This document shows positions 14,501 through 45,568 of a DNA stretch of 64,000 nt, piece after piece. The position numbers and the translations under genes were made by a program. Source of the DNA: a virus (lineage: Duplodnaviria > Heunggongvirae > Uroviricota > Caudoviricetes); IMG/VR virus record IMGVR_UViG_3300009169_000014, positions 44,741 through 108,740 of that record. The stretch is one strand, 5' to 3'. The notes beneath the pieces were generated by a model, which saw only the letters and a list, made by a program, of their open reading frames with translations, was not told the origin of the DNA and ran no database searches. Position 1 is the stretch's first letter, and every line of letters starts with the position of its first letter.

Positions 14501-16346
14501 CCTTGTCGTTCGTCCCCGTGCGTACATCACCAGGCTCGAGCTCGATCTTCATGAGCAGGCCGTTGATGGTCTTCTGTCGTTTGACGGCGCCGCCACGCTT
14601 CTCGAACGAATTCTTCTCAATCCCAAAGTCTTCTGCGTGCTTCTTCCCAGTAGGGTCGATGTAGATGTACTGCCCGTCGACCTTCACAACCTTGCCTGCG
14701 ACGGGAGACGACGGGAGCTCCAGCATCGCGAGTGCCTTCTCCCAACTCGAGAAGACCTTGCCCGTCGCATCAGCGACACCCGACTGCACTAGGGGTGCTT
14801 CTCGGTGCACGAGCGGGAGCGCCTGCGTCATCGACTTGCCTCCCATGATGCCGCGGTTCCCCTGCACGGACTCCAAAAAGGGAACGAGGTTCGTGGCGGG
14901 AGAGTACAAGTCTGAAGCATCACTGATCTCGTGCGTAACCTCCGACCATGGAACGCGCTCCATCTTCCCGTACTTCATGACCGCGACGACCCCAAAGTGC
15001 TTCTGCCTCGGGAAGGCGACGACTGCCCGACTCATCCGCGCTGCGGACAGAAGCTCCGACTTACCGGTCTTGACGTCCCGCACCATGGAGTACAGGTTCC
15101 CCTTGGGGTCCCGGTGCGCGAACATCGAAGTACGGATGTCGATACCGGCGCGGAACGTCTCGGACGTTCGCACAGGATCAAGGATACCAAGGTGGCTCGA
15201 GTGAATCGCCCGAGCCTCGCCAGGGATTGCACGCTCGTTGGCGATGCCACCCTCGCCCAAGGAGGTCACCCGCACCGCGTGGTCAATGGCCTCCATCGGG
15301 TTGATGTGCGTTGGGATCGAGCTCAGCTGCGATCCTGTGAGGAAGCTTCGAATGCCCGCGGAAAAAGGAGAAGGCGGAAGAATGGTCCGGAGTTCCGTCT
15401 TGTGCGTGGCCCTCCCCTTCACCTTACTGGCGAGCGCCCGAGCATCCAGGGTGATGCGCTCTTTGATGAAGTCGTCGACCGAGTGGTACGTCTTGAACCG
15501 TAGAGCGTCTCGGTCGTCAGTGTCCTCGTTGTTCTTGTAGACGCTGAGGAGGCGCTTCGACGCCACCAAGAGAGACTGCGGAGTGACGCTGGAGAACTCG
15601 TGGCCCAGTGTCTCCTTGGTAACCTCAGGGTCCATCGCCGTAGCGGCGTAGGCTGTCCTGATGGCAGCGAGCTGCGACTCCGGGTCCTTTGCCATCCGCT
15701 TCGAAGGGTGCACCAGCTTCTCGTAGAGCTTCGACAGATTCTTGTCGTGCTTCCCTTCAAACGCAGACTCATTCTGCTTCGCAACGTCGGAGCCCCAGTG
15801 CGAAGAAATGTCCGTGTGTGGTACTCCCAGCTTCCGGAGTACTGAGTAAAGTGGAATGGACGTCGTGCCGTACTCGATGTACGGATGCCCCTGCGTCGGA
15901 TCCATCGACAGCCGGAAGTTGGACCCCTTCGACAAGTTGAAGGCGGCCTCCAGATCTTCGTTGCCGCGGCGACGGGTGTATACGCCCGGCTTCAGACGGA
16001 GTTGGTTAGAGACGTTGTACTCGTTGCCGTCCAAGATGAAGGTGTGCCGCCCCGTGAAGTAGGGCAGGTTAAGCAGAGTGAAGTTCTTTACCCGCTCGAG
16101 CTCCTTCCCGTCGGCCCCCCGGAGGATGACCGTCCCCTTCACAGGCTCAAAAAGAGACCCACCGCTGAGCAAAGCGCTCTTCTGATCGTGCGGACCGAAG
16201 TCCCTCTCGTGCACCTTGAGATCAACGACCTCGATTTTCTTGTCCCGAAGTGGAAGGGGAAAAGCTGTACGCAGCGCATCAAGCGCTTTCGAGCGGATTT
16301 GAATCCGCCGCGACTCGGGGTCGGTCATCACAGGCGTGAGCTGCAT
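11535..16346 (-). CDS. DNA-directed RNA polymerase, fused beta subunit plus beta-prime N-terminal portion (through the catalytic NADFDGD region)
   Basis: Beta motifs: MRVGDKLTGRHGNKGVVS (GDK…GRHGNKGV) and KAVGKMEFNALVAHNARNVLKE (GGQRFGEMEVWALEAYGAA). Beta-prime N-terminal motifs: WSHIELAEPMVNP (GHIELA.PV), VLPPIMRPIL…LYQSLMLHNRSL, and NADYDGD at 11797-11817, followed by 87 aa to the stop. The track ORF extends to 17171, but the first 275 aa are Arg-rich junk. The real start is proposed at the ATG at 16346 (MQLTPVMTDPESRRIQIRSK…). Confidence 0.85.
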   Translation of the reverse strand: MQLTPVMTDPESRRIQIRSKALDALRTAFPLPLRDKKIEVVDLKVHERDFGPHDQKSALLSGGSLFEPVKGTVILRGADGKELERVKNFTLLNLPYFTGRHTFILDGNEYNVSNQLRLKPGVYTRRRGNEDLEAAFNLSKGSNFRLSMDPTQGHPYIEYGTTSIPLYSVLRKLGVPHTDISSHWGSDVAKQNESAFEGKHDKNLSKLYEKLVHPSKRMAKDPESQLAAIRTAYAATAMDPEVTKETLGHEFSSVTPQSLLVASKRLLSVYKNNEDTDDRDALRFKTYHSVDDFIKERITLDARALASKVKGRATHKTELRTILPPSPFSAGIRSFLTGSQLSSIPTHINPMEAIDHAVRVTSLGEGGIANERAIPGEARAIHSSHLGILDPVRTSETFRAGIDIRTSMFAHRDPKGNLYSMVRDVKTGKSELLSAARMSRAVVAFPRQKHFGVVAVMKYGKMERVPWSEVTHEISDASDLYSPATNLVPFLESVQGNRGIMGGKSMTQALPLVHREAPLVQSGVADATGKVFSSWEKALAMLELPSSPVAGKVVKVDGQYIYIDPTGKKHAEDFGIEKNSFEKRGGAVKRQKTINGLLMKIELEPGDVRTGTNDKGEKWEKKMYVAYGHIPKTVGDDGETVDIYLKEEGTFDNVYIVHQRKKDGSHDEDKCMVGFDSKDAAKDAYEKHGPPWGYGSLTEYTWDEFKDDYLSERGREKAAAEKDLLRIPYEDNFPFASKTYLHHDLLVKPGDHVDANQRLADSNFTRDGAFALGRNMTIGYVPYYGMNSNDAVVISEGAADKLTSEHMYKEVLEVERDATLGREIHRQYYGPKYMADQYRKLDTNGVVRKGTKVMPHDLLIAGVTRGKLSASDMLLSNLKKTLVHPYRELVRTWDHDFEGEVMDVHVTDRRVVVTVRTKEPMRVGDKLTGRHGNKGVVSLIVPNHKMLQDEAGKPLDVLYTSAGVVSRINPAQILETCVAKVAKKMGKPIAVANFSGRDNVQWTKDLMKEHGVKDKETLFDPVSGKKIPNILVGPQYVLRLFKTTETNFAARGTGAYDVNQQPIKGGDEGAKAVGKMEFNALVAHNARNVLKETASIKSQKNDEFWKAVQLGLPLPPLKASFAYDKFIGMLHGAGVKVDTRGSLSTLMPLTDNDITRMSAGAVQNEKLVRAKDLAPERGGLFDPAVTGGPDGTRWSHIELAEPMVNPIFAEPARRLLGMASKDFDAYRFQSGGSALKQRLNGIDVKARLKEVRASIKSLNGVKLDDAVKQLKFLEALDKQNLRPGDAYVLSKMPVLPPIMRPILAGKSGSELVVGDSNYLYQSLMLHNRSLQTQVDKPVLPPDEHSKLRQNLFLAVGAAVGTHESDNPKLQKRNVKGLLEHLTGKTTPKSSFFQKKIMKRQQDISGRGTIAPDGSLGMDEIGLPEDMLWGMYGKFIIGRLIRRGFNAVRAKEMLDEKHPAARDAMMAELKERPVMVNRAPTLHRYGFVGANPVPVAGKTIRVNPFIEQGMNADYDGDTFQIHVPILPAAVAEVKGMTLSNLLFSDREQNSLMVAPRMEAMLGVHLATKAEGSVNGQTHKFKTKADAMAAYKRGEIGLHTKVEVG

Positions 16347-16430
16347 GTCCGTAAGTATAGCCCTGAAATTGGTATTAGTAGTTGAGCCCCACTGACGGGG
16401 CTTTGACGCAGTACCACGCGAGGGGAACAA

Positions 16431-17213
16431 ATGGCCAACAAAGTAGCGGGGAAGACGAAGAAAAAGAAGGTCGTAAAACGAGCGGCGCCTCCGATCCACA
16501 AGGAGGAGGCATCGTTCCTCATCGACGTCCGAGAGATTCCACCGGACAAAATCCTCCGCGCTTCGCTCGTCTGTGAAGTTGACGACCGAAAACGGTGGGA
16601 TGCGATGAGCGAGGGGATGGTGGCGAACCAGTTGCCGAGGATCGCCCGCATCGCAGCCACGCTGACCAACACCAAGGCGCGTTGCCACTTCTGCAACAAG
16701 CCGCAGGAACCGCTCTCCAAGGAGCGGATGTTTCATTTCAGCAGCGACTACAAGTTGTGCGAGTGCTTGATGGTTCTTCGCAAGCGCCCGTACGAGTACA
16801 TCCCGGGGTGGAGTCATCCTGAGAAGCTGAAGCAAATTCTCAGTCAAGTGGAAACCGGCGAGCTGCTTCCAGTGGCGCCGGTCTACCAAATCGTATGCCA
16901 CTGCGGAGAAGGCCCTGTCGTTGTTAACGCGGGACTGATCGCACAGAGCGTACTGAAGTTCGGAGCGCACGCGCGAAAGAGGCAATGTGATCGGTGCCAC
17001 TTGAAACACATGCGGGCGAAGGTCCGCCCCAATGCGCCGTTGCGTGCGCCCGTGTCGGAACTCATCGCTGTTCCTCAGGACGGGCCCGGTGGCAAGTTCA
17101 AGAGGAACCGCAAGAAGGGGCACCAGGGACCGCGGCAGGGGGCCGTGATCATCCCAGAGGGTAGCCTTCAACCTTTGACCGCGCTCGAGAAAGCGCCTGA
17201 GACACCTGCTTGA
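16431..17213 (+). CDS. Cys-rich (zinc-finger-like) basic protein, 260 aa
   Basis: A GAGGGGA Shine-Dalgarno lies 6 nt upstream of the ATG. The N-terminus is Lys-rich and there are multiple CxxC/CxC pairs (CHFCNK, CECLMVL, VCHCGEGP, RQCDRCHLKH). It is divergent from the RNAP gene. Confidence 0.5.
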   Translation: MANKVAGKTKKKKVVKRAAPPIHKEEASFLIDVREIPPDKILRASLVCEVDDRKRWDAMSEGMVANQLPRIARIAATLTNTKARCHFCNKPQEPLSKERMFHFSSDYKLCECLMVLRKRPYEYIPGWSHPEKLKQILSQVETGELLPVAPVYQIVCHCGEGPVVVNAGLIAQSVLKFGAHARKRQCDRCHLKHMRAKVRPNAPLRAPVSELIAVPQDGPGGKFKRNRKKGHQGPRQGAVIIPEGSLQPLTALEKAPETPA

Positions 17214-31524: not shown

Positions 31525-31529
31525 ACGCT

Positions 31530-32320
31530 TCAAAAAGATCTTGCACCGGTACCTATCCGGCGTCTCCGTAGTGGAGACATTTCCCTCCCGGTGGTCTCCT
31601 ACAGCCTAGCTGAACGGAGACCAGGATGTCCTCGAGGGAGACGTCGTCGATGAGCTGAGGGTGGTTTCGTTATGCAGCGCCATCGCCGAGCTCTTCAGAC
31701 ATGTTGGAACTCAGAAGATCTGCTTTACCTTTCCTGCACCGGTACCTATCCGGCGTCTCCGTAGTGGAGACATTAACCCGTCCGGTCGGCGCGCAGCCTA
31801 GCTGCTTTGCCGACACCGAGGGTCATCATGAACGCGGCGCCGTCGTCGAGCTCCTCCTTCATCTCGAACACCCCAGTCCTGGACCAGGCTCATCGATAGA
31901 ACACAGAGGAAAAAACGTTGTGAACTCTTGCTCCGGTACCTACCCGGCGTCTCCGTAGTGGAGACAATGAGGCCGTGGGTGATACGCAGAGCCTAGCTCT
32001 CGCTACACCCAGGATGTTTTCGTACGGCCGTGCTTCGACGAGGTCCTCCTCGAAGATGTTCGCCGCGGCCGCCTCGAGCTGCTGCAGATGATAAAACAAA
32101 GAAGAGTTCTGTAGAACCTGGTGATTCGATCAGGTGCTGTACGCACCGACCGCGTAGTGCGGTCTTTTGCTCCAAAGCTACCCTCGAGATATTTCCCTGG
32201 GGTGTGAGGAAATATCATCACAGGAGTCACCACGTGCCGCAGGTTCGGATCAGAGGTGATCCTCACCTACGCGCTAAGGAGTCACCACCATCGTGCCGCG
32301 GCCTCCGGAGCCTAGCTCCT
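31530..32320. repeat. Non-coding repeat region: three roughly 193-bp-periodic modules, each with a GATCT box, a conserved 38-nt box carrying the hairpin GTCTCC-N5-GGAGAC, and a downstream AGCCTAGCT box. A second repeat family AGGAGTCACCAC…CGTGCCGC occurs 3 times
   Basis: 38-nt boxes at 31542-31579, 31735-31772 and 31931-31966 (tgcaccggtacctaYccggcgtctccgtagtggagaca). GCCTAGCT at 31604, 31795, 31991 and 32310. AGGAGTCAC at about 32222, 32277 and 32357. The region lies between the convergent DnaQ and terminase genes. Confidence 0.6.
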
Positions 32321-32367
32321 GCTTCTAGTCGGCCGCGAGCTGAAGCCAAGCTTCTTAGGAGTCACTA

Positions 32368-35285: not shown

Positions 35286-36007
35286 AGCTGCTCAAGCTCT
35301 CCACGCAGACGCTTCGTCTTCTCAGAGACGTACACCCAAGACGCAGCCAGCTTCTCCAACTGTGCCCCCAAGGGGGAGTCGTCGAACTTCTTCTGTTCGA
35401 GCTTCTCCTTGGGGAGCGCGGTCCATGCCTTCTCGGTCTCCCCGAGAAGGAGGGCTGCGCTCTTCGGCAGTCTTGCTTTTAGCTCGTCCGCAACGACGTG
35501 AAGGCCCGCGGGCGGGTAGACGAACCCTTCGTCGAAGAGGGCGACAGCGATGTACGCCTGCACGCAGTCATCGAACTCCGGCCTCGTACTCTCGCCGTCC
35601 GAGAGTGCGAACAGGAGCTCAGCCTCAAACGCGGCCCAAGCCATCGGTCCGGCGTCGCAGTGCGGCACCTCTTCGGGCTGCACGTGGCCGTTGCTCAGCG
35701 CGTGGACGGTGGCGCCGAAGACGCGGTAGTCCCAGTAGAAGCTCGGGGTCATCGCCAGAGCAATGGCCGCCATCAGCTTGTCGCGGTTCGAAGCGCAAGG
35801 GTCCAGCTCCAGCCACAAGGTCTCGGGTTCGTATGAAACGAAGGTCGGGCCCAGCAGGTGGCGGGCTGCCACGAAAACTGCAGTGGCGGTGGCGTCGCAA
35901 TCCTGCAGCACTGCCTTGGCGTGATCCTTCTGAGCGTGAGTGGGCGAGCGGAAAAACGCCGCATAGGCCTCCTTCACGACGAGACGCTGTTGATCGGAGA
36001 GGGTCAC
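35282..36007 (-). CDS. Hypothetical protein (241 aa)
   Basis: Minus-strand ORF. The stop of the MoxR gene overlaps its stop, giving convergent ends. Confidence 0.45.
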   Translation of the reverse strand: MTLSDQQRLVVKEAYAAFFRSPTHAQKDHAKAVLQDCDATATAVFVAARHLLGPTFVSYEPETLWLELDPCASNRDKLMAAIALAMTPSFYWDYRVFGATVHALSNGHVQPEEVPHCDAGPMAWAAFEAELLFALSDGESTRPEFDDCVQAYIAVALFDEGFVYPPAGLHVVADELKARLPKSAALLLGETEKAWTALPKEKLEQKKFDDSPLGAQLEKLAASWVYVSEKTKRLRGELEQL

Positions 36008-36618
36008 AAAGAGCCTGCGGCACGGAGGTGACGAACAGCGCGAAGACGCTTCTCATGCTGGTCCAGCGACGGCTCTCCCCCTGGAGCGATGGGGGCGATG
36101 GGCTCAGGTTTCGGACCCACAAGGTCTTTGAGGCGATCCCCGGTGAGGAGGGACTCTGGCTTGTTCGGACGCTTGAGGCCCTGGTCGTACTTCGCTTGGA
36201 CGTCTCGAGGAAGAATCGTGAACTTGTCTAGACCCCAACCCGGCGAAGGTCCAAGTACGTCGTTCACCCTCTTTTGCGCGGTGAGACGCTTGTCACGGCT
36301 GCGCTCGTTGACGTCCTTCCACGCCCCAGTAGGCATGAGAGGTTTGCTCAGTGTGGCGACTGAGAGCGGCAGCGTGAACAGATTCACCCCTAAGTTGAAC
36401 AGGCGCTCAAGGCCGTGCATCTCCTTCAGCTTGGGCGGAAGCGCCTCAGCCCTGGCCCCTTGGCGAGCAGAGAATTCCTGCGCGCTCTGCGCAGCAGCAC
36501 CGGGACCGAGACGCGTCATCCTGGAGGCAAGACCGCCTTGAAGTTTCTTGTTGATCCAGTCATAAGAGACGGCGAACTTCTCGAAGGCGTCTCGCTGTCC
36601 TAGCCCGTAGAAGTTCAT
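36004..36618 (-). CDS. Hypothetical protein (204 aa), MNFYxLGxRD-family paralogue A
   Basis: N-terminus MNFYGLGQRDAFEKFAVSYDWINKKLQ. Start/stop overlap with its neighbours. Confidence 0.5.
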   Translation of the reverse strand: MNFYGLGQRDAFEKFAVSYDWINKKLQGGLASRMTRLGPGAAAQSAQEFSARQGARAEALPPKLKEMHGLERLFNLGVNLFTLPLSVATLSKPLMPTGAWKDVNERSRDKRLTAQKRVNDVLGPSPGWGLDKFTILPRDVQAKYDQGLKRPNKPESLLTGDRLKDLVGPKPEPIAPIAPGGEPSLDQHEKRLRAVRHLRAAGSL

Positions 36619-37010
36619 CGCGCTTTGGTATTGATGAGAGAAGGAAACTCTTTGGCTACGTTCACAGCGGCACTGGTAGCCGCGGAGCGGTTCGCAGTCA
36701 TACGCTGTAGGTTCTGCAGCCGCTCGACGTCCGGGGGCTGTTGTCTCACCGCCGCCATGGTGCGCCGCAAGAGACGCATAGACGCGGGGGGCTGTCGATC
36801 AACAAAGGTTGTCACCCTTTTAGCGTTGTTCATTCCCTCTACGCCGTGTTCAAGCCCGCCTTCCAGGCCGCCACCCCCTCGGTAGGGCGCTACTGCGATG
36901 GCCTGCTGAAGGAGATTTCGAGTGGCGTCGGTCGTATGACTCTTGATCCACTCAGGGCTAACGGCGAACTTCTCCAGAACATCCCGGGTACCCAACGCGT
37001 AGAAGTTCAT
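36615..37010 (-). CDS. Hypothetical protein (131 aa), MNFYxLGxRD-family paralogue B
   Basis: N-terminus MNFYALGTRDVLEKFAVSPEWIKSH. Tandem with paralogue A. Confidence 0.5.
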   Translation of the reverse strand: MNFYALGTRDVLEKFAVSPEWIKSHTTDATRNLLQQAIAVAPYRGGGGLEGGLEHGVEGMNNAKRVTTFVDRQPPASMRLLRRTMAAVRQQPPDVERLQNLQRMTANRSAATSAAVNVAKEFPSLINTKAR

Positions 37011-37028: not shown

Positions 37029-38045
37029 TTAGCGACAGTGCGCCTTCAGCTGGAGCTTCAGATCCAGAGGAAGCGTGTCCACCACGGTGGCCAACTTCGA
37101 CTGGTCAACGACTCCGCCGGGGGCGATCTCGTCACCGAGCTCCTTGCCACCGAGGTCTTCCCAGAAAGACGCAGGGAGTTGTGCAAGCTTGGCGACTGTA
37201 ACGAACGTGCCGCCCAGGTCCACAGAGTTCCCTGCAAGTTTTTCGGTGTTGAACACCGTCCGCAGTGCGTCAGGCAGCTTGCGGTCGTAGTGCTTGTCGA
37301 GGCCCGACTGTGCGTCGAGCTCACCAATGGCCGACGCCACCTTGAGCAGGCCCGCGCGCTCTGAGAGCTCTTCCGGTCCTTTCCTCATGTGTGTGGCGAG
37401 GGTCTGGTAGGCCGTCTTGAACACGTCTCCCTCGGGGAACCGCGAAGCTCGTGCATCGAGCCACTGGGCCGCCAGCTTGGTGCTGGAAACCACGAGGCCA
37501 GACAGCTGGAGCACTTCAGGGCGGAGCTCCACCTTGAGCTCGTCCGCCCGCTTCACCAGGTTGGCGCAGGCGGTGGCGCGGTTCGCGAGGTCCAGCTTGG
37601 GGAGCTCTGCGACCAGGCGGTCCTGCGCCAGCTTCACCTGAGCTTCGGTGTGGAGGGGGAGGAACTTGAACTCGGGGAGGACGTACAGGTCGTCCGACGC
37701 CACCTTCTCAGCCAGCTCAGCGAAGGTGGTCTCCGGGACCTCGTACACCTCGAGAGCCTTCACGATGTTGCTGCGGACTTCCGCGGGAAGGACAGAGGCA
37801 ACCTTGCTGTACGCGTAGGACAGAGCGGCATGCTCTGGCGTGTGGATCGGGAACTTGCGTTCCGCGGGCCATGCGAAAGCCGAATCGGGCAAGGAGCGAG
37901 CCTCCTCAGGCTCCACAGCGGCCTGCTTCACGAAGTCCTCGAGGGCGGGCATCTTATTGACCTGCCGGTAGAGGGTGCCAAAAGCAGGGTCACTGAATTG
38001 ATCGACAGTCGGCATTTTGCCACCTCGAAAAGGGTACAGAACCAC
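37029..38045 (-). CDS. Hypothetical protein (338 aa)
   Basis: Minus-strand ORF preceded by a GAGG-type RBS. Globular composition. Confidence 0.5.
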   Translation of the reverse strand: MVLYPFRGGKMPTVDQFSDPAFGTLYRQVNKMPALEDFVKQAAVEPEEARSLPDSAFAWPAERKFPIHTPEHAALSYAYSKVASVLPAEVRSNIVKALEVYEVPETTFAELAEKVASDDLYVLPEFKFLPLHTEAQVKLAQDRLVAELPKLDLANRATACANLVKRADELKVELRPEVLQLSGLVVSSTKLAAQWLDARASRFPEGDVFKTAYQTLATHMRKGPEELSERAGLLKVASAIGELDAQSGLDKHYDRKLPDALRTVFNTEKLAGNSVDLGGTFVTVAKLAQLPASFWEDLGGKELGDEIAPGGVVDQSKLATVVDTLPLDLKLQLKAHCR

Positions 38046-38064: not shown

Positions 38065-39705
38065 TTGAGCTCTCACAACGACGAGAATGAGCTCGCGAAG
38101 TCCCTGGTTTACTGGGTATCGCGACGCGGAGCAAACAACTACTGGGCCACGCTCATCAATGGCTGCGACAAGAAGTACACCAACGAAGACGGTACGATGT
38201 CGGTCCAGCTGGCGCCGAATTGGCGCTACCTACTGACCTGCCACCTGCCGTTCTTCGAGAAGTGCTCGCCGGAAATGCGCCTGTTGGTTCTGGTGCACGA
38301 GGCGGCGCACATCGCGCTGAATCACATCCCTCGCCTGTTCAAGCTGCTGGCGAACTGCACGGACCCGTTCGTGCGCAGGGCGATTCTAGCCACCTTCAAC
38401 TGGGCCGCGGACTTTGCAGCCAACGACGCCATCGTGCGGCTCGAGCCTGGATTCGAGAAGGCGCACAAGGCGTTCATGCACGTCGGCAAAAACGGAGAGA
38501 TGGTCAATGTCACCGAGGAAGAAATCGAGAAGCTCCCTGGTGAGTTTCCGTTCCTGCTGCCCGAGGAGTGGGGCTTCCCCAAGGGTCTCTCTATGGAGGA
38601 GTACTTCATCCTCATCCTGAAGGACCTGCCGAAGTTCAAGCAGAAGGTCGAGCGGATGATGGAGGACCTCAAGCGACAGCTGGAAGAGATGGGAAAGAAC
38701 GGAGAAGGCGAGCTTCCCTCGGAAGAGGAAGGCGACGTAATGGCTTCCCCGTTTGGCCGCGGGAAGAGTGGGCTGCCCAACAGCGTTCCGGGTCTTCCGG
38801 AGTCGTTGATCGGCCACGCCATCAATTCTCCTGAAATCTTCGACATGATGCAGAAGGCCTTCGACAAGATCTCCGGAAATTCGCACAAGCAGTGGAACGA
38901 GAAGGCTGAGGGGATGACGCCTGAAGAGGCCATCTCCGCTGGGTCGAAGATGAAGAAGCACGCCCAGCAGCTGGCTCGCTCTGCGAACGAGCGCGTCCAT
39001 CGGGACCGCGGGTACATGTCGGGGAATGTTCAGCGCATCATCGACGCGCTGCTCGAGCCTGAGCAGCTCCCGTGGGACATGTTCCTGCGTGACATCATCC
39101 AAGGCGCCATCACCGCCCGCGTGATGGAGGAGATGACCTCTCCCAACTTGTCGCTCATCAACGAGGACTACCTCGAGCCCTGGCCCGGCCAGACGCTGGA
39201 GTTCGGCTTCAACATCACCTGGATGACGGACACGTCTGGGTCGATGGGTGACGACGAGTACGCCCGTGCCTGCGCCTGCATCAACTCACTGCTGGCCCAG
39301 AACAAGTCGGTCTTCGTGACCTACTGCGAGTGCGACGCGGCCATGCAGAAAGAAGTGAAGGTCACCAACGTCGAGCCTCCGACTGAGGAGTACATCAAGG
39401 AGCTCCAGAACCGCCGTGGCCATGGGGGCACGGTCTACACGCCGTTCTTCAAGCGAGTCGCCGGGGCGGACAGCCCGGGGGATTGGGTGCGCAATGCGCC
39501 CAGGCTCGAGGACAAGCACCCGAAGCCGGACCTGATGGTCATCTGCACCGACGGCGGTGTGGGCCTGATGGGCGAGTGCTTCCCGCAGTACCAGCCTGAG
39601 TGCCCCATCATCTGGCTGCTGATGCCTGGGTGTCACCCCTGCGAGGGCATGGACAACATCGCACCGAATCGGTTGATCGAGATGTTCAAGATGAAGGAGG
39701 AGTAA
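38065..39705 (+). CDS. Putative zinc metallopeptidase (HExxH) fused to a C-terminal von Willebrand factor A domain
   Basis: LVLVHEAAHIALNHIP carries HExxH. The vWA MIDAS motif is ITWMTDTSGSMGDDEY (DxSxS), with …TDGGVGLMG downstream. It pairs with the MoxR ATPase at 34011. Confidence 0.65.
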   Translation: MSSHNDENELAKSLVYWVSRRGANNYWATLINGCDKKYTNEDGTMSVQLAPNWRYLLTCHLPFFEKCSPEMRLLVLVHEAAHIALNHIPRLFKLLANCTDPFVRRAILATFNWAADFAANDAIVRLEPGFEKAHKAFMHVGKNGEMVNVTEEEIEKLPGEFPFLLPEEWGFPKGLSMEEYFILILKDLPKFKQKVERMMEDLKRQLEEMGKNGEGELPSEEEGDVMASPFGRGKSGLPNSVPGLPESLIGHAINSPEIFDMMQKAFDKISGNSHKQWNEKAEGMTPEEAISAGSKMKKHAQQLARSANERVHRDRGYMSGNVQRIIDALLEPEQLPWDMFLRDIIQGAITARVMEEMTSPNLSLINEDYLEPWPGQTLEFGFNITWMTDTSGSMGDDEYARACACINSLLAQNKSVFVTYCECDAAMQKEVKVTNVEPPTEEYIKELQNRRGHGGTVYTPFFKRVAGADSPGDWVRNAPRLEDKHPKPDLMVICTDGGVGLMGECFPQYQPECPIIWLLMPGCHPCEGMDNIAPNRLIEMFKMKEE

Positions 39706-39707
39706 CT

Positions 39708-39920
39708 ATGGAATTCTTGGATTGGCTGCTCACACAGGAAAAAGAACAAGGGGCTATCGGAGACCTGGCGAGGGACGCCGCGAGAGATCTCAAGTACGGG
39801 GAATGGAAACCCCTGACGAAGAAACCAGAGTCCTTACACCACAGGATGTGGACCACCAACGCGTGCGCAGAAGCCCACCAAGCCTTCGAAGACGCGGTGG
39901 CCGCTTGGCAGGAGGGATGA
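39708..39920 (+). CDS. Small hypothetical protein (70 aa)
   Basis: AGGAGG RBS before the ATG at 39708. Sequence MEFLDWLLTQEKEQGAIGDLARDAARDLKYGEWKP…. Confidence 0.35.
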   Translation: MEFLDWLLTQEKEQGAIGDLARDAARDLKYGEWKPLTKKPESLHHRMWTTNACAEAHQAFEDAVAAWQEG

Positions 39921-40192
39921 TGTCGAAGAAAGCAATCCGACGAGAAGACGTAGAAATCCGCTGGTTCACCGACGACAAGTTCGACGGGACCCGCATCGAC
40001 AAGAACCGCCACATCTTCCAGCGGGCAGATGGGACGGAGTACATCACCAACGGCGGGGACGTCACTCGAGACCCGGCCACCGGAAAGCTGTTCGTTGAAC
40101 GGCGCTGCAAGACGATTCAGCCGATCAACATTCACGACTGGGTCAAGAAGGTCAAGGAGTCCGGCGGGCAGATCGTCATCCTGCCTCCCTAA
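39917..40192 (+). CDS. Small hypothetical protein (91 aa)
   Basis: GGAGGG RBS, then ATGATG. Sequence MMSKKAIRREDVEIRWFTDDKFDG…. The Arg-rich N-terminus of the track ORF was discarded. Confidence 0.4.
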   Translation: MMSKKAIRREDVEIRWFTDDKFDGTRIDKNRHIFQRADGTEYITNGGDVTRDPATGKLFVERRCKTIQPINIHDWVKKVKESGGQIVILPP

Positions 40193-40195
40193 GCC

Positions 40196-40720
40196 ATGGG
40201 CTACTCCCTCGCAACGCCGATCAAGAGTGAGAAGGCCAAGAAGGAGATGATGGCCTTCCTCCGGAGGCACTACAACCACACGCTGGACCCCTACGCGCGG
40301 GGACCGATGGATCGTGACCTCTCGTACGACCACGGTCCCTGTCGCATTGGGTTCGATTTCACCGTGCAGCATGACTACCCAGTCTCGGTGTGCGCTTGGA
40401 TCGCCCTCAAGGTGGGGAAGCGAAAGACGTACCCCACCAAGCAGTGCGACAAGGTCCACGGGCCCTACAAGTACATCGTGTACGACGGTTACGAAGACTG
40501 GCCGCTGTACATCACATCGACGTGGCGGACTGGACTACCTCAGCTGGTGAAGATCAACTGGGTCGGCTGCCTGGTACCGCAGCCACAAACGTGGGACCGC
40601 CTGACAGGGCGTAAGAAGCAGCTCAAGCGCATCGAAGAAGAGCTCAAACGACTCGACGCGCTTTGGACCTCAGGAAAGTGGCGGAACATCCGAAGCGAGT
40701 TCGCTGCTCAGCGGTACTGA
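40196..40720 (+). CDS. Hypothetical protein (174 aa)
   Basis: Plus-strand ORF with protein-like composition. It is upstream of the RT module. Confidence 0.45.
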   Translation: MGYSLATPIKSEKAKKEMMAFLRRHYNHTLDPYARGPMDRDLSYDHGPCRIGFDFTVQHDYPVSVCAWIALKVGKRKTYPTKQCDKVHGPYKYIVYDGYEDWPLYITSTWRTGLPQLVKINWVGCLVPQPQTWDRLTGRKKQLKRIEEELKRLDALWTSGKWRNIRSEFAAQRY

Positions 40721-40745: not shown

Positions 40746-41372
40746 ATGGACCTGTATTGCCTCCGTGTCCGGCGGGAAACCGCCGGCAAGCAGTTCCCGT
40801 TTGACCGGGTGTACCTCGCCAAGAACGGCGAGCACGGCGTCTTCAAGAAGCTGTTCCGCTACGCCTTGGTGTTGCCCGTCGAGAGCAGCCTCAAGAACAT
40901 GCTGCTTGACTACGTGAAGATCGACGCAGGCGAGACGCACGAGCATGACCGACGTGACGACGCCCCTCCGCCCAGCGACACGGAGTGGAAGGAAGCGCTC
41001 GAGACTGGGGACTGGGTGATGTGCGTGCCCATCCTGGCGAAGTACGTGGCGTCGAACATGCCGCGGTATCTCACAGCGGCGGGGGCCTACCGAGCTCCCA
41101 CCAACGGTAAAACCAAGCGCCGACGCCGAGGGGCTTCAATCATGCCGGGGATCAAAGAACCGTTCCCCACCCTGACGTACTTACAGACGCCCGAGCAGAA
41201 CATCCGGCCTGTCTGCATCGCCTGCCCGAACTTCATCAACCACCAGAACGGTCACTGCCGCCTGGGTGAAGAGATCTGCTACACCTCTCTCTCCCTCGGG
41301 ATGCACAACCACTTCAAAGAAGGGCTGGAGGTTCCTGAACCTTCGGCGCTCCCTGCTTTCGAGGAAGACTGA
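40746..41372 (+). CDS. Hypothetical protein (208 aa), translationally coupled to the reverse transcriptase
   Basis: Its stop overlaps the RT start (TGATG at 41370-41374). A Cys/His cluster lies near the C-terminus (CIACPNFINHQNGHC). Confidence 0.5.
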   Translation: MDLYCLRVRRETAGKQFPFDRVYLAKNGEHGVFKKLFRYALVLPVESSLKNMLLDYVKIDAGETHEHDRRDDAPPPSDTEWKEALETGDWVMCVPILAKYVASNMPRYLTAAGAYRAPTNGKTKRRRRGASIMPGIKEPFPTLTYLQTPEQNIRPVCIACPNFINHQNGHCRLGEEICYTSLSLGMHNHFKEGLEVPEPSALPAFEED

Positions 41373-42568
41373 TGCCCACCTACAAGCAGAACTTCCTCGA
41401 GAAGATCGAGGTCAAACCGCTCCTGGTGAACTCGCCCGACGTACCGCTGATCGTCGATGACTGGACGCTGGCCTTCCGGCTGGGGTTCACTGGCAAGACG
41501 TTCTGGTACATCGTGGACAACCGCGCCAAGATGTACAACGAGTTCATGATCAAGAAGAAGTCTGGCGGCCTTCGCCGGACATTCGACCCGAACGGGCTCA
41601 TCCGCATCTTTCAGCAGCAGATGCGCGCTCGTATCCTGCTACCCCTGTGCTCCAAGCTCGGGGCGCATGTCTCGGCCTACCAGGTGGGGAAGAGCACGCT
41701 GGACGCCGCTCAGGCGCACCTGCGTGACTGCCCCATCTGTGTGGAGACCACCAAGCCGGGGACCAACCCGGTGAAGCACGACTGCCCGCGGCGGGGCGTG
41801 AAGTTCAAGATGGACCTCAAGGACTTCTTCTTGTCGACCCGCCGGTCATGGATCCGCCAGTACTTCCACGAGGTCGTTGGCTACAACCACTACGCCAGCA
41901 GTCTGTTGGGCCAGCTGCTCACGACCGACTACCGCGACGAGAAGAAGAGGAAGCGGACAGGCGTTCCTCCGGGAGCGCTCACCGCCGGGGACATCTGCAA
42001 CCTGGTGTGCGACTGGAAGATTGACCAGCCGCTGTTGAAGGCTCTGCCAAACGGGTGGCGCTACACCCGGTACGCAGACGACTTGTACTTCAGCAGTGAT
42101 ACGCCCCTGCCCACAGAAGAGGTGAACAAGGTCATCCAGCTGGCGACCGACATCATCAAGGGCTCAGGCTACCGAGTAAACTGGAAGAAGCTCCAGGTCC
42201 AGCACTGGCGGCGGCCTCAGCGAGTGCTGGGGATCAACATCAACCGCAAGCTGAACATCCCAGCGAACGAGTATCGCAAGCTGCACATGCTGCTGTACAA
42301 GGCCAATCAGCACGGCTTCGAGGCGCAAGTGAAGTACGCCAAGAAGGACGATGTCGTGAAGCTGCATGCGTGGATCGTCGGCAAGCTGAACTACTTCACC
42401 CGGTTCGCGCCGGAGAAGACAGAGAAGCTGCGGAAGCTCTACCAGCGGGCGAAGGAAACCCACAAGACTTCGGACATCACCATGTTCGAGTTCGTAAACG
42501 GGGAACTGACGAGCGAGCCCATCGATCTCGAGAACCAGGATCCGCCGTTCGAGGTGACAGGCACATGA
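41372..42568 (+). CDS. Reverse transcriptase (retron/DGR/Abi-like RT domain, motifs 1-7)
   Basis: Motif 1/2: IKKKSGGLRRTFDP. Motif 2a: AHVSAYQVGKSTLDAAQAH. Motif 3: FKMDLKDFFLS. Motif 4 variant: GVPPGALTAGDICNLV. Motif 5: YTRYADDLYF (YADD at 42071-42082). Motif 6/7: RVLGININ. A Cys insertion DCPICVETT…HDCPRRG lies between motifs 2 and 3. Confidence 0.8.
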   Translation: MPTYKQNFLEKIEVKPLLVNSPDVPLIVDDWTLAFRLGFTGKTFWYIVDNRAKMYNEFMIKKKSGGLRRTFDPNGLIRIFQQQMRARILLPLCSKLGAHVSAYQVGKSTLDAAQAHLRDCPICVETTKPGTNPVKHDCPRRGVKFKMDLKDFFLSTRRSWIRQYFHEVVGYNHYASSLLGQLLTTDYRDEKKRKRTGVPPGALTAGDICNLVCDWKIDQPLLKALPNGWRYTRYADDLYFSSDTPLPTEEVNKVIQLATDIIKGSGYRVNWKKLQVQHWRRPQRVLGININRKLNIPANEYRKLHMLLYKANQHGFEAQVKYAKKDDVVKLHAWIVGKLNYFTRFAPEKTEKLRKLYQRAKETHKTSDITMFEFVNGELTSEPIDLENQDPPFEVTGT

Positions 42569-43830
42569 AATACACCGTTTGTCTCGCTACCTCTCGAAGC
42601 CCAGCCCTGCTCTTTCAGACACTGGACGTCGAGAAGGTAGCTGCGCTGCCGGAGCTCGAGAAGATCTTCTCCAACGGGTACTTCGTGACTCAGGTGGGGG
42701 AGAGGAACCCCGAAGCGCGCTCCTGGTACAACAGGAACGAACGAGAGCCACCCGAGAAGAAGCTCCATGTACTGGTCTCGACGCACCTGAAGGACCAGAA
42801 CCCGGACGAAGCTCCCCTCGAGGGGGCCGATCTCCGGTTCTTCATCAACGGCAAGCCCCACGCGTTGAATCTGCGTACCAGGTACAACCAGTGCCTGTCG
42901 CTCTTCAAAGCGGTGGGCTGTTCGCACTGCCCCGACCGAGGGATGAGGTGTCTCTCGGAAGGGGTGGGGTTCGAACTGCCTCAGCGGCTCTCGCCAGCGC
43001 ACCAAGAAGAGGACCTGTGGGACCACGTGCGAGAGAACTTTCCCAAGCTGGGGGAGTTCACTCTCGTGAAGCCGGGGTCAACGCGGACAGCGGCCTTCTC
43101 GAAAGCGATTCGCTCCTACTGGGAACACGACTTCGAGGAAATGGAGAAGAACCACAAGAAGCGCTCTGAGGCGTCAACGCAAGGCGCTGAGACCAAGAAG
43201 TTCAAGAAGGAACAGTGCGGCAAGTGCCCCATCAAGAGCAGCTGCGACCGTTCTCGATGGTGCAAGGGTGCTTACCCGCCAGTCGAAGACATCGTCGAGA
43301 TGAGCGAGCGTCGTCTCACCGAGACGCTTGCGAAATCCCCCTGGCCTGAGTGGCAGCTGTGGGAAGTCGCTCGAGCCATGGGCGCGACAGCGAAGGTCTC
43401 TCGCTGGAACGTCATGCTGACAGGGCTCAAGCTGCAGGGGACTGACGGCGTCGTTGCGACGGTGCATCGGGCCAAGGGAGACATTCAGCCGTTCGGGATG
43501 CTCAAGACGTACGAGGACATCGCCAAAGCGTTCGACCTGGCGCTGACCGAAGCAGATGTGCCTGCGAAGCGTGGGCCAGTCAAGGACAAGACCACTCGAG
43601 CGCTGCTGTGGTTGACGCTCAAGACGGGGAGAGGAAACAAATCGTACGGTTGGGGCTGCCGTAGCTACATCACCGCGGTCGGCTGCGACAATCACAGTGT
43701 CAGAGTAAAATGGACTAACGGGTCCTACATCTCGGACTACTACGACGACACTCTCACGGAGATCAGCCAGGTAGCGTCCCGGCTGTCCGATGGGCAACTG
43801 GCTGACATCGACAAGGAGGAGGTTCGGTAA
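42565..43830 (+). CDS. Hypothetical protein (421 aa), translationally coupled downstream of the RT
   Basis: The ATG at 42565 overlaps the RT stop (ATGA). Cys-containing segments (CSHCPDRGMRC, CGKCPIKSSCDRSRWC). No known domain recognised. Confidence 0.5.
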   Translation: MKYTVCLATSRSPALLFQTLDVEKVAALPELEKIFSNGYFVTQVGERNPEARSWYNRNEREPPEKKLHVLVSTHLKDQNPDEAPLEGADLRFFINGKPHALNLRTRYNQCLSLFKAVGCSHCPDRGMRCLSEGVGFELPQRLSPAHQEEDLWDHVRENFPKLGEFTLVKPGSTRTAAFSKAIRSYWEHDFEEMEKNHKKRSEASTQGAETKKFKKEQCGKCPIKSSCDRSRWCKGAYPPVEDIVEMSERRLTETLAKSPWPEWQLWEVARAMGATAKVSRWNVMLTGLKLQGTDGVVATVHRAKGDIQPFGMLKTYEDIAKAFDLALTEADVPAKRGPVKDKTTRALLWLTLKTGRGNKSYGWGCRSYITAVGCDNHSVRVKWTNGSYISDYYDDTLTEISQVASRLSDGQLADIDKEEVR

Positions 43831-44012
43831 TGTTTCTCTGCTACATGACGCTGCGACGTGATGATCCGCGTTGGTCCGCCTTCGGAAACGGAGACGAGAT
43901 AGTCGTCGCACAAGCACTGACGCGCGAAGCAGCTGAAGCGGTACAACGGCTCTTCGCTCCCACGAAGTTGCAGGTGTGGGAAGCGAAGCAGCCGCGAAAC
44001 GTCTACCTCTAA
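43830..44012 (+). CDS. Small hypothetical protein (60 aa)
   Basis: Start overlaps the upstream stop. Ends convergently against the minus-strand gene at 44009. Confidence 0.3.
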   Translation: MFLCYMTLRRDDPRWSAFGNGDEIVVAQALTREAAEAVQRLFAPTKLQVWEAKQPRNVYL

Positions 44013-45142
44013 GGAACCGTGCGCTCCGCGGTGGGGCACACTTCCTGGAGTGCCAGAAACGCGGCGGTATCCGCGGCGAGGGCGGCCGCAGTAGCTTTGT
44101 CGGCCGCCTTTTTTTCGGTTGCAGCGTCCGCAGCGGTCCTGTCTGCCTCTGTCTTGGCGTCCGCGGCGATTGCAACCTCGGAGATCTTGGTAGTGCAGGC
44201 CGCCGACATGTTGGTGGCGAACGTCGTCATGACGGGCTGCCCACCAACCGCCTCCGCCTGAGAAGCCGTCGTCGCAGCGGTGATGGCGGCTTGCCACGTG
44301 GCCTTCACGCCGTTGAAGATTCCGGTCGCTGTGTCGAGGGCGGTTTCGTCCCCAGAGCCCGGGTTGTCGATGGCCCGGTACACAGCGACGGCGGCCTGGT
44401 AGGTCGTGCACGCCGAATCGAAAAGCTTCGACTGTGTCAGCAGATTGTTCATCTGCGTGCGGAATGTGTTGATCGGAGCGATACCGCTGTTGTACTGCCC
44501 CAACAGAGTGCTGCACTTCTGGCTTTCAGCGACAGCGCTCGTGGCGTTGTCGTTGGCGGCGGATGCAGTAGCTGTTGCTGCGGTCAGCGTCACCGCTGCT
44601 ACCGCGCTCGTAGCCGTTGCGTCCAGGAGCTCAGCGTGCGCCGCGTTGTACGCGTCCTGCCGTTCGGAAACGATACTGGTAGTCAGCGGAAGCGTGATGT
44701 CCGAGTACGTGTACGGCGGGCCCTCTGGTGTAGGCGCATTGAGCGGGTACAGGAACTGCTCGTTGTACGCATGCCAATCAGCGATGAGGTTATCGACCCG
44801 CTGCTGAATGAGCAGCTTCGCCTGGTTCGCTGTAGCGATGTCGTCGTAGATGACGACGAAGTTCGCCGACAGGTAAATCGTCTTCCCGGAGCTCAGCGCG
44901 GATTCACGCCCCTGGGGAAGGGTGGTCAGGTCAGCGACGTTAGCCACTCGCAGGAACGTGTCCTGCTTCGGATCCGTCGGCGCGACGATCTGATGCACGA
45001 AGACGTTTGAGGTATAAGGAGCAGGACCGTAAATTGGCAGGTCCCCCGGCAGCACCTCGTCGATGGACGACTCGATCTTGAAGCGCTGAACACTCTGTTC
45101 GTCGAGAAAGACGGTGCAGCGCTGCCCAAGAATCGTAGCCAT
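44009..45142 (-). CDS. Ala/Thr-rich hypothetical protein (377 aa), possible fibre or receptor-binding-like protein
   Basis: Minus-strand gene embedded in the + strand block. The N-terminal region is shared with the next gene (…VFVHQIVAPTDPKQDTFLRVANVADLTTLPQ…). The C-terminal half is A/T/N-rich low complexity. Confidence 0.4.
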   Translation of the reverse strand: MATILGQRCTVFLDEQSVQRFKIESSIDEVLPGDLPIYGPAPYTSNVFVHQIVAPTDPKQDTFLRVANVADLTTLPQGRESALSSGKTIYLSANFVVIYDDIATANQAKLLIQQRVDNLIADWHAYNEQFLYPLNAPTPEGPPYTYSDITLPLTTSIVSERQDAYNAAHAELLDATATSAVAAVTLTAATATASAANDNATSAVAESQKCSTLLGQYNSGIAPINTFRTQMNNLLTQSKLFDSACTTYQAAVAVYRAIDNPGSGDETALDTATGIFNGVKATWQAAITAATTASQAEAVGGQPVMTTFATNMSAACTTKISEVAIAADAKTEADRTAADAATEKKAADKATAAALAADTAAFLALQEVCPTAERTVP

Positions 45143-45151
45143 GTGGTGTCC

Positions 45152-45568
45152 TTACGGAAGGTTGACAGGGCCGGTGACGCCGACGAAGGTGCTCGCCGTG
45201 ATCTCGTACTCATTACAGAGTGACTTCATGCGAGAGATCAGCGTATCCGCGAAATCCTGTGCCACTTCCATCGTTGCGAAGTCTTTAGTGACGGACATCA
45301 GTCGGTAGTACGGCTGATTGGCGCCTTGCGCCGCGAGCAAGCTGTTCGGGAACGTCTGCATGTCCAGCACAGTGGCCACGTGGCTGAAAAGCCCGTCGGC
45401 GACCTTGTGCACGAACACGGACGCCGGAGACGTCGGGCCCGGCGACAAGCTCTCAGGGAACCCTGTCGAAGAGTTGATGACGTCCACTACGCGATACGGC
45501 GCGGAGACCGAAGCCGCGGGAGGAACGGACGCGGTACGGGTCTGAGTGTGGTTGAGCGTAGCTGCCAT
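45152..45568 (-). CDS. Hypothetical protein (138 aa), paralogous to the N-terminal region of the 377-aa neighbour
   Basis: …SVFVHKVADGLFSHVATVLDMQTFPNS… resembles the downstream gene's N-terminus. Co-oriented, with a 10-bp gap. Confidence 0.4.
   Translation of the reverse strand: MAATLNHTQTRTASVPPAASVSAPYRVVDVINSSTGFPESLSPGPTSPASVFVHKVADGLFSHVATVLDMQTFPNSLLAAQGANQPYYRLMSVTKDFATMEVAQDFADTLISRMKSLCNEYEITASTFVGVTGPVNLP

What the first reader, a model, noticed from the sequence alone, without database searches (positions are those of the whole stretch)
40746..43830. Reverse-transcriptase three-gene module (208 aa, then RT, then 421 aa) with translational coupling. Possible DGR-like or novel phage RT system
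The RT has motifs 1-7 including YADD (42071-42082). It also has an atypical motif 4 (GVPPGALTAGD instead of QGxxSP/LGxxSQ) and a Cys insertion between motifs 2 and 3. Both flanking genes overlap it by ATGA/TGATG, which implies an operon. Retrons usually have a non-coding msr/msd region upstream; here the upstream sequence is coding. Immediately downstream, on the opposite strand, lie two Ala/Thr/Asn-rich fibre-like paralogues (44009..45568). These could be diversification targets if this is a diversity-generating retroelement. Alternatively it is a defence-type or anti-defence RT module carried by the phage.
Basis: partly seen in the sequence, partly recalled or inferred. Interest (0 to 1): 0.8.

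Follow-up and report, generated by a model that had tools for sequence, protein, structure and literature searches.

The report
Retron-type reverse transcriptase module in phage
A large uncultivated phage carries a conserved three-gene operon built around a retron-type (not diversity-generating) reverse transcriptase and two unknown cysteine-cluster proteins; it lacks the usual retron RNA gene and partners, and its function is unknown.

Summary
Three coupled genes lie at the stated coordinates: orfA 40746-41372, RT 41372-42568 and orfC 42565-43830. They overlap by TGATG and ATGA, and the RT has an intact YADD box. All three are under purifying selection (dN/dS 0.13-0.22).

The DGR reading is rejected. 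The RT is retron-type: retron Ec86 scores 6e-40 against 1e-11 for group II introns, and the best PADLOC model is RT_XIII. No TR/VR pair exists.

It is not a type XIII retron either. SWIM_XIII and HEAT-ARM_XIII are absent, and no msr/msd-like non-coding RNA was found next to or inside the module.

orfA and orfC are orphan families defined by invariant Cys4 clusters. The RT carries its own CCHC insertion.

The trio is conserved in about 50 phage contigs of 40-196 kb, down to about 30% RT identity. It always follows a VWA/DUF2201 gene, as an opposite-strand cassette inside a p138-p377-p338 operon. A tree suggests it is ancestral and was lost in two clades.

My best reading is a domesticated retron RT complex that makes cDNA from a non-adjacent template for an accessory infection function. 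The biological role is unresolved.

I rate it a new variant of a known kind, of moderate to high interest.

The parts
38065..39705 (+). VWA / DUF2201-type gene (546 aa). It is the first gene of the + strand cassette and lies immediately upstream of the RT module in all RT-bearing loci.
   Evidence: Pfam DUF2201 4.6e-07 and DUF2201_N 1.1e-06. Syntenic in all RT-anchored loci. Retained without the RT module in one clade, and absent together with it in another.
39708..40720 (+). Three lineage-specific small genes (70 aa at 39708-39920, 91 aa at 39917-40192, orfZ 174 aa at 40196-40720) between the VWA gene and orfA. They are not part of the conserved core.
   Evidence: ORFs and gene calls in L001. 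orfZ is found only in close relatives. Compact relatives such as L004 go straight from the VWA gene to orfA.
40746..41372 (+). orfA, 208 aa, an orphan protein. Its C-terminal Cys4 cluster (C157, C160, C171, C178; CIACPNFINHQNGHCRLGEEIC) is at 41214-41279.
41372..42568 (+). Retron-type reverse transcriptase, 398 aa. YADD is at 42071-42082 and motif 4 at 41960-41992.
   Evidence: RVT_1 7.6e-15. PADLOC RT_XIII 1.2e-46, followed only by other retron RT models. PDB profile search: retron Ec86 6.3e-40, Ec67 3e-39, group II 1.4e-11. Catalytic Asp residues D148, D236 and D237 are conserved in the family.
41729..41785 (+). CCHC insertion in the RT (C120-x2-C123-x12-H136-x-C138) between motifs 2 and 3. 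It looks like a zinc finger.
   Evidence: Coordinates. It is conserved, and in many members expanded with a second CxxC pair. It is absent from the most distant members and from the bacterial type XIII RT P0120.
42565..43830 (+). orfC, 421 aa, an orphan protein with two Cys4 clusters: C110/C119/C122/C129 at 42892-42951 and C218/C221/C227/C233 at 43216-43263.
44009..45568 (-). Context only: p377 (44009-45142) and p138 (45152-45568). Together with p338 (37029-38045, - strand) they form an operon that the + strand cassette interrupts.
   Evidence: Syntenic in all loci. p138-p377-p338 are contiguous in phages without the cassette. Weak N-terminal paralogy, E = 0.002. No repeat links them to the RT module.

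Best explanation
This is a domesticated retron-type reverse-transcriptase module of a lineage of large uncultivated phages. It is not a DGR and not a canonical retron.

Shown:
- A catalytically intact retron-clade RT is translationally coupled to two orphan Cys-cluster proteins, orfA and orfC.
- The three genes stay together over divergence to about 30% RT identity, even where the gene order is permuted.
- They follow a VWA/DUF2201 gene in an opposite-strand cassette inside the p138-p377-p338 operon.
- The cassette appears ancestral to the group and was lost in two clades.
- No non-coding RNA gene lies next to the module.

Inferred:
- The RT, with its own CCHC finger, orfA and orfC form a nucleic-acid-binding complex.
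- During infection this complex copies a specific RNA into a small cDNA or an msDNA-like RNA-DNA product. The RNA would be either part of a phage mRNA or an RNA encoded elsewhere in the 187-kb genome.
- The product or the complex serves a dispensable accessory function in the phage's own infection cycle. I lean towards host takeover or counter-defence over abortive-infection-type defence, because the module is inherited vertically over long times rather than swapped like an island gene.
For: RT class:
- PADLOC's top 25 hits are all retron RTs, with RT_XIII best at 157.7 bits.
- The PDB profile search puts retron Ec86 and Ec67 at about 1e-40, against 1e-11 for group II introns.
- The nearest bacterial relatives (27-34% identity) are bona fide type XIII retrons.

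Active enzyme:
- YADD and the motif A Asp are conserved.
- dN/dS is 0.13-0.22.

The trio behaves as a unit:
- orfA, RT and orfC co-occur with overlapping or abutting genes in about 50 loci.
- A permuted RT-orfA-orfC version sits after the VWA gene in L241/L243.

Cys clusters are invariant.

No adjacent ncRNA:
- Relatives such as L004 and L008 have no intergenic space over about 50 nt inside or downstream of the module.
- The inserts seen in some relatives encode small proteins.
- There is no long stretch of synonymous-site constraint.
- No universally conserved local structure was found.

Cassette and history:
- Three locus architectures and the p338 tree give 27 RT-positive loci, one VWA-only clade and one clade with no cassette.

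Phage identity: terminase, DNA polymerase, helicase, ribonucleotide reductase and RNAP-like genes are present.
Against: - No template RNA, no cDNA product and no protein-protein contacts have been shown. The complex and its product are inference only.
- Bacterial retron RTs use an adjacent msr/msd RNA, and none was found here. My searches could miss a short or coding-embedded element, and Rfam cannot detect type XIII ncRNAs even in true retron loci.
- orfA and orfC have no recognisable fold, so nucleic-acid binding is only suggested by the Cys clusters and a weak resemblance to a transposase zinc knuckle.
- The biological role is not constrained by any direct evidence. Loss in two clades fits an accessory function but does not say which.
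- One divergent lineage has YSDN instead of YADD, so polymerase activity may not be needed everywhere.
- The NJ tree has no support values.
Confidence: 0.45

Rival explanations
1. It is a diversity-generating retroelement. The RT would copy a template repeat with adenine mutagenesis into the 3' end of p377 or p138.
For: An RT lies next to two Ala/Thr-rich genes on the opposite strand. Phages are the classic home of DGRs.
Against: - The RT is in the retron clade, not the DGR clade.
- No direct or inverted repeat of 40 nt or more links 34-50 kb to anything else in the window. The only significant repeat joins two paralogous small genes at 36.5-37.0 kb.
- The mismatches show no adenine bias.
- No Avd-like gene is present.
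- p377 and p138 are conserved in phages that lack the RT.
Confidence: 0.02
2. It is a phage-borne defence retron for superinfection exclusion or abortive infection. The RT plus an undetected ncRNA would guard one or both accessory proteins, which act as toxic effectors against competing phages or satellites.
For: - It has a retron-type RT with tightly linked accessory genes, the tripartite logic of retrons (PMC7736814).
- The nearest relatives are type XIII retrons.
- Its presence or absence among related phages fits a dispensable conflict gene.
Against: - No ncRNA was found.
- orfA and orfC match no PADLOC model and have no nuclease, protease, TIR, ATPase or transmembrane signature.
- The module sits at one fixed position and is inherited mostly vertically down to about 30% identity, unlike fast-turnover defence islands.
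- The family was not found in bacterial genomes. The one exception is a 170-kb phage-like contig binned in a MAG.
Confidence: 0.2
3. It has a life-cycle function in genome replication or processing. Examples are cDNA priming of phage DNA synthesis, maintenance of genome ends, or a virion- or assembly-linked activity helped by the neighbouring AAA+ and VWA pair.
For: - Conservation is deep and vertical, and the RT is as well conserved as the backbone genes.
- It is located among morphogenesis and packaging genes: TerL, an AAA+ ATPase, and p338 with a weak DUF6582-like motif.
- It is constantly linked to the VWA gene.
Against: - Two clades of otherwise syntenic phages lack it, so it is not essential for the shared replication strategy.
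- The phage has its own DNA polymerase, primase-helicase and helicase.
- No terminal or ori-like element is linked to it.
Confidence: 0.2
4. It makes DNA without a template or by protein priming, like AbiK, Abi-P2 or some DRT systems, so that no ncRNA is needed.
For: No template RNA was found near the module.
Against: - The RT resembles retron RTs over the whole fingers-palm-thumb region (Ec67 residues 8-332).
- Abi, UG and DRT models do not appear among its top PADLOC matches.
- The best non-retron, non-group-II PDB match reaches only 1.7e-06.
Confidence: 0.08
5. It is a selfish mobile retroelement, either group-II-like or a retron riding on a mobile island, that happens to sit in the phage.
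For: RTs in phage genomes are often parts of group II introns (PMC12350094, listed).
Against: - No intron RNA was found by Rfam.
- There is no endonuclease or maturase domain.
- The chromosomal position and neighbours are identical across about 50 divergent phages.
- There are no flanking repeats.
Confidence: 0.02

Closest known systems
Type XIII retrons (Mestre et al. 2020, PMC7736814; includes the vertically inherited myxobacterial retrons)
   Same: The RT's best PADLOC model is RT_XIII. Its nearest cellular relatives are true type XIII RTs of Myxococcota, Planctomycetota and Verrucomicrobiota. Both have a multi-gene cassette with two accessory genes, and both show largely vertical inheritance (for type XIII; here).
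   Different: - The score on RT_XIII is 158 bits, against 441-472 bits for true members.
- The RT lacks the N-terminal extension of about 100 aa: the match starts at profile position 107.
- No SWIM_XIII or HEAT-ARM_XIII partner is present. orfA and orfC are unrelated orphans.
- The RT has a CCHC insertion that type XIII lacks.
- No ncRNA was found.
- It is carried by phages, not by cells.
Structurally characterised retron RTs (Ec86/Eco1, Ec67, Ec78)
   Same: There is clear homology over fingers, palm and thumb (6e-40 to 2e-27). YADD is present, with a VTG-equivalent region (VLG) and an NAxxH-like AAQAH (that these motifs are retron-specific is my own knowledge).
   Different: There is no adjacent msr/msd RNA and no known effector (nucleoside deoxyribosyltransferase, ATPase/Toprim or PtuAB). 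The operon is compact and translationally coupled, with Cys-cluster proteins.
Retron-like RT of Staphylococcus jumbo phages (MarsHill gp206; bioRxiv 10.1101/2020.12.14.422802)
   Same: It is a retron-like RT in a large virulent phage, it is not a DGR, and its function is unknown.
   Different: [quoted passage not shown] Here there are three coupled genes and no non-coding region. tblastn found no close relative of this RT family in any isolated phage (best 28% identity).
Diversity-generating retroelements (Bordetella phage BPP-1 type)
   Same: Both are phage-borne RTs with small accessory genes.
   Different: The RT clade differs, and TR/VR, IMH and Avd are all absent.

Membership tests
Diversity-generating retroelement | RT belongs to the DGR RT clade | tested here: not met
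   PADLOC's top 25 hits are all retron RTs. The PDB profile search gives retron RTs at 1e-40, with no DGR RT above threshold.
Diversity-generating retroelement | Template repeat / variable repeat pair that differs at adenines | tested here: not met
   The repeat finder on 39.5-46.5 kb and word-7 blastn of 34-50 kb against the whole window found no pair of 40 nt or more apart from two paralogous genes. There is no adenine bias. The rest of the 187-kb genome was not available.
Diversity-generating retroelement | Avd-type accessory protein | tested here: not met
   orfA, orfC and the small neighbouring ORFs have no Pfam or PHROG match.
Retron (general) | Retron-clade RT with an intact active site | tested here: met
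Retron (general) | Adjacent msr-msd non-coding RNA flanked by a1/a2 inverted repeats | tested here: inconclusive
   - There is no non-coding space in or beside the module in the window or in compact relatives.
- There is no stretch of synonymous constraint.
- No conserved structure was found.
- The only flanking inverted repeats are short, 71-82% complementary and not significant.
- A coding-embedded or unlinked RNA cannot be excluded. Rfam has no usable model.
Retron (general) | Linked effector gene or genes | tested here: inconclusive
   Two strictly linked genes exist, but they have no recognisable effector domain.
Retron (general) | Production of msDNA (2'-5' branched RNA-DNA) | not testable with these tools
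   This needs an experiment.
Retron type XIII | RT in clade 10 (RT_XIII) | tested here: inconclusive
   RT_XIII is the best model, but only at 158 bits, against 139 bits for RT_III-A and 441-472 bits for true type XIII RTs. It looks like a sister group rather than a member. No full phylogeny was made.
Retron type XIII | WH-SWIM (cluster 114) and HEAT/ARM accessory proteins | tested here: not met
   PADLOC finds SWIM_XIII and HEAT-ARM_XIII in bacterial loci L164, L100 and L122 but nothing for orfA or orfC.
Group II intron | Intron ribozyme RNA plus a maturase/endonuclease-type RT | tested here: not met
   No Rfam hit in the window or in 12 related loci. Group II RTs score far weaker than retron RTs.
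Abi / UG / DRT reverse transcriptases | RT in the UG/Abi clade | tested here: not met
   No DRT or Abi model appears among the best 25 PADLOC matches for any of 19 family members.

The most novel reading that the evidence does not exclude
An ancient retron RT has been captured and kept for a very long time by a whole lineage of 125-196 kb phages. It would be part of a new four-component machine: a VWA protein, orfA, an RT with a CCHC finger, and orfC. This machine would reverse-transcribe phage mRNA or an unlinked RNA without a canonical msr/msd. That would be a phage-side use of reverse transcription that is neither mutagenic retrohoming nor abortive-infection defence. It could be, for example, a cDNA-based counter-defence or a replication or regulatory device.
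Probability: 0.3. Interest if true: 0.85.

Novelty: new variant of a known kind. Interest (0 to 1): 0.62.

Why it matters
Retron RTs are known as bacterial anti-phage sensors, and phage RTs are known mainly from DGRs.

Here a retron-clade RT is a long-standing, vertically inherited resident of a diverse group of large phages. Its two partner families occur nowhere else, and it has no recognisable template RNA gene.

If it is active, it would define a phage-side role for retron-type reverse transcription and a new RT-partner architecture built on Zn-cluster proteins with a link to a VWA gene. It could also yield a compact RT system of interest for ssDNA production tools.

It also gives a concrete, testable case for how retron RTs find their templates when no adjacent msr/msd exists.

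Tried and rejected
- **DGR.** Repeat searches and RT classification rule it out.
- **Rfam.** Nothing was found at gathering or E-value thresholds in the window or in related loci. Rfam also fails on genuine type XIII retron loci, so this negative is uninformative.
- **ncRNA in inserts between module genes.** The 260-nt insert in L011/L094 encodes a conserved 84-aa protein. The 176-nt spacer in L002 encodes a 60-aa zinc-ribbon-like ORF.
- **Region 43830-44009, downstream of orfC.** It is variable or absent in close relatives and only weakly structured.
- **Inverted repeat 42396-42419 / 42665-42688 across the RT-orfC junction.** The fold is not better than shuffles, z = -0.6.
- **Local structure at 42850-42999 (z = -4.4).** Only 26-42 of 53 pairs are kept in relatives.
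- **Hairpin at the 5' end of orfA.** It is strong in six lineages but not general, and it is weak in the window's clade.
- **The 530-nt structured spacer between RT and orfC in L006/L097.** It is confined to that lineage and is equally well explained as a terminator plus promoter. Its core has no match in IMG/VR.
- **Fold searches for orfA and orfC.** No informative match was found. The afdb50 library was unavailable.
- **Homology between orfA and orfC.** None.
- **Promoter and terminator scan.** Not above chance.
- **tRNA primers.** The window has no tRNA genes.
- **Literature.** No description of this family was found.
Full report
**1. The observation**

The window is phage DNA of about 60% GC. 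It encodes a large terminase, a DNA polymerase, helicases, a ribonucleotide reductase and RNAP-beta-like proteins. It has no DNA-level match to any deposited phage.

Its orfC product is identical to a protein on a 187,070-bp metagenomic contig.

The overlaps are TGATG (orfA stop / RT start) and ATGA (orfC start / RT stop). YADD lies at 42071-42082. The Cys insertion is C120-x2-C123-x12-H136-x-C138, at 41729-41785.

All three genes show the GC3 signature of coding sequence. Against relatives their dN/dS is 0.13-0.22, with dS of 0.6-1.4. So the upstream 208-aa ORF is a real gene, not a disguised msr/msd region.

**2. What kind of RT it is**

- Pfam gives only RVT_1.
- In PADLOC the best 25 matches are all retron RT models. 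RT_XIII is first (1.2e-46, 158 bits), then III-A, XI and XII. The same holds for 19 diverse family members.
- A family profile hits the solved retron RTs Ec86 (6e-40), Ec67 (3e-39), Kva2 and Ec78. Group II intron RTs follow at 1e-11.
- The 'atypical' motif 4 is a clade-specific variant of the family consensus GVPQGAPTSGD. The catalytic aspartates are conserved.
- In one genome per species of GTDB, the closest RTs (27-34% identity) come from Myxococcota, Planctomycetota and Verrucomicrobiota.
- I checked three of these loci. They are genuine type XIII retrons, scoring 441-472 bits on RT_XIII and carrying SWIM_XIII or HEAT-ARM_XIII neighbours.

The phage RT family is therefore a distinct relative of the type XIII clade. 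It lacks that clade's N-terminal extension and has gained a CCHC insertion.

**3. DGR test**

No direct or inverted repeat longer than 36 nt occurs in 39.5-46.5 kb.

A word-7 blastn of 34-50 kb against the whole window finds only the two paralogous small genes at 36.5-37.0 kb. The mismatches show no adenine bias.

There is no Avd. The supposed target genes also exist in related phages that lack the RT. The DGR reading is rejected.

**4. The module across phages**

The RT has at least 178 database relatives, many on contigs of 140-196 kb.

Gene neighbourhoods and about 50 IMG/VR and metagenome loci all show orfA-RT-orfC with overlapping or abutting genes, down to about 29% RT identity.

The wider synteny is also fixed: p338(-) | VWA/DUF2201(+) | orfA | RT | orfC | p377(-) | p138(-). 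TerL and an AAA+ ATPase lie a few kb upstream.

No isolated phage carries the family. The nearest terminases are those of Salmonella phage Arash and Vibrio phage D181, at about 29% identity.

Among bacterial genome assemblies, only a 170-kb contig binned into a Gemmatimonadaceae MAG has orfA and orfC. It looks like a phage contig.

**5. Is the module core or accessory?**

I searched in the reverse direction, anchoring on p338. Three architectures appeared:

1. The full cassette.
2. The VWA gene kept, with the RT trio replaced by a 400-aa orphan (L185, L195, L204-206, L234, L236).
3. p138-p377-p338 directly contiguous, with no VWA gene and no RT (L193, L227, L229, L238/239, L242, L249).

Thus VWA plus the RT trio is an opposite-strand cassette inside another operon.

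On a neighbour-joining tree of p338, the RT-positive state is the majority (27 of 41). It occupies the deep branches. Each RT-negative state forms one clade nested among RT-positive ones.

The simplest reading is an ancient acquisition followed by two losses. The tree has no support values, so this is indicative only.

A very divergent lineage (L241/L243) has VWA, then RT, then an orfA-like gene, then an orfC-like gene. The order is permuted and the RT has YSDN in place of YADD. This supports the view that the three proteins and the VWA gene belong together functionally.

**6. The partners**

*orfA*
- It has no family match.
- Its four C-terminal cysteines (C157, C160, C171, C178) are invariant.

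*orfC*
- The family is homogeneous: 216 representatives, all about 400-520 aa.
- Two Cys4 clusters are invariant or nearly so.
- The model is decent (pLDDT 80).
- It has no informative fold match and no PDB sequence match.
- The only hint is a weak, recurrent match of the second cluster (CxxCPxKxxC) to the N-terminal part of Pfam DDE_Tnp_1_6.

orfA and orfC are not homologous to each other. Neither resembles the type XIII partners.

**7. The missing RNA**

Canonical retrons need an adjacent msr/msd. Here the space is coding.

- Compact relatives leave no gap over about 50 nt in or after the module.
- The extra spacers in some relatives encode small proteins.
- The stretch after orfC is not conserved.
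- Synonymous-site conservation among 6-9 close relatives shows no long constrained stretch.
- Sliding-window folding flags a few segments in the window. The strongest, 42850-42999, is not conserved.
- Across 31 loci, the only recurrent dip is at the 5' end of orfA. There, six lineages have a long hairpin whose 3' arm is the conserved FPFD codons. It is not general, and it is weak in the window's clade.
- One lineage (L006/L097) has a conserved, structured 530-nt spacer between the RT and orfC. It is confined to that lineage and could simply be a terminator plus promoter.
- Rfam is blind to type XIII ncRNAs, so its negatives carry no weight.

The template is therefore unknown. It may be embedded in mRNA, unlinked in the remaining 123 kb of the genome, host-derived or absent.

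**8. Interpretation**

These points are shown:
- a retron-clade, apparently active RT;
- two co-inherited Cys-cluster partners;
- linkage to a VWA gene;
- cassette structure;
- long vertical history with two losses;
- no DGR features and no type XIII partners.

These points are inferred:
- the three proteins form a nucleic-acid-binding complex;
- the complex makes a small cDNA from a non-adjacent RNA;
- the function is a dispensable accessory one during infection.

I give this composite reading 0.45.

The rivals are a conventional defence retron (0.2), a replication, genome-processing or assembly role (0.2), template-independent synthesis (0.08), a DGR (0.02) and a selfish element (0.02).

The deep vertical conservation argues against a typical fast-turnover defence or anti-defence island gene. 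The two losses argue against an essential replication role.

**9. Novelty**

Literature searches found the retron classification (PMC7736814) and a retron-like RT in Staphylococcus jumbo phages (bioRxiv 10.1101/2020.12.14.422802). They found nothing that describes this family or its partners.

I rate it a new variant of a known kind. The RT is retron-type, but the partners, the CCHC insertion, the VWA linkage, the lack of an adjacent ncRNA and the phage-lineage residency are new.

Noticed in passing
window 31527-32110 (- strand), within the ORF-poor gap 31525-32367: There are three tandem units of about 194 nt. Each ends in the identical 22-mer GTCTCCACTACGGAGACGCCGG followed by (A/G)TAGGTACCGG, which gives two adjacent hairpins. 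Each is preceded by a CAGCTAGGCTG hairpin. They lie just downstream of the terminase gene, and the whole region folds at z = -3.6. They could be a promoter or terminator array, an origin or packaging region, or small RNAs.
   Followed up: partly
L006 7023-7551; L097 about 6978-7504: A conserved, strongly structured non-coding spacer of about 530 nt (z = -5.8 and -2.9) lies between the RT and orfC in one divergent lineage. It has a long hairpin (CCCCCTACCCCAC...GTGGGGTAGGGGG) around an AT-rich centre. It is either a candidate RT-associated RNA or a terminator plus promoter.
   Followed up: partly
5' end of orfA in L008, L013, L033, L017, L019, L049 (for example L008 5395-5450): A long hairpin has as its 3' arm the conserved FPFD codons. 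Its 5' arm lies in a variable, indel-rich part of the protein, and some bases change on both sides. It is absent or weak in most other lineages and in the window.
   Followed up: partly
L241 2062-6998; L243: A very divergent, permuted module runs VWA, then RT, then an orfA-like gene (199 aa), then an orfC-like gene (548 aa). The RT has YSDN in place of YADD.
   Followed up: partly
L185 5760-6962 (-), and homologous positions in L195, L205, L234, L236: In the clade that kept the VWA gene but lost the RT trio, a 400-aa orphan protein with no Pfam or PADLOC match occupies the same slot.
   Followed up: partly
window 36004-36618 and 36615-37010 (- strand): Two tandem paralogous small genes (204 and 131 aa) both start with MNFY(G/A)LG.RD..EKFAVS. 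They give the only significant internal DNA repeat near the module, and they are absent from relative L001.
   Followed up: no
window 11535-17171 (-) and 8135-9934 (-): An 1878-aa protein combines a region that matches minor-head, virion and endolysin-type PHROGs with RNA-polymerase-beta-like regions. A second RNAP-beta-like gene lies nearby. This suggests a phage-encoded multisubunit-type, possibly virion-associated, RNA polymerase.
   Followed up: no
L011 4744-4998; L094 about 2418-2676: An extra, protein-level-conserved 84-aa gene is inserted between orfA and the RT in two close relatives. It breaks the orfA/RT overlap there.
   Followed up: yes
L097 (CAYTFY010000008.1, 169,868 bp, labelled as a Gemmatimonadaceae MAG): This contig carries the phage-type orfA-RT-orfC module. 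It is probably a phage genome binned into a MAG, and it gives a weak hint about the host at best.
   Followed up: partly
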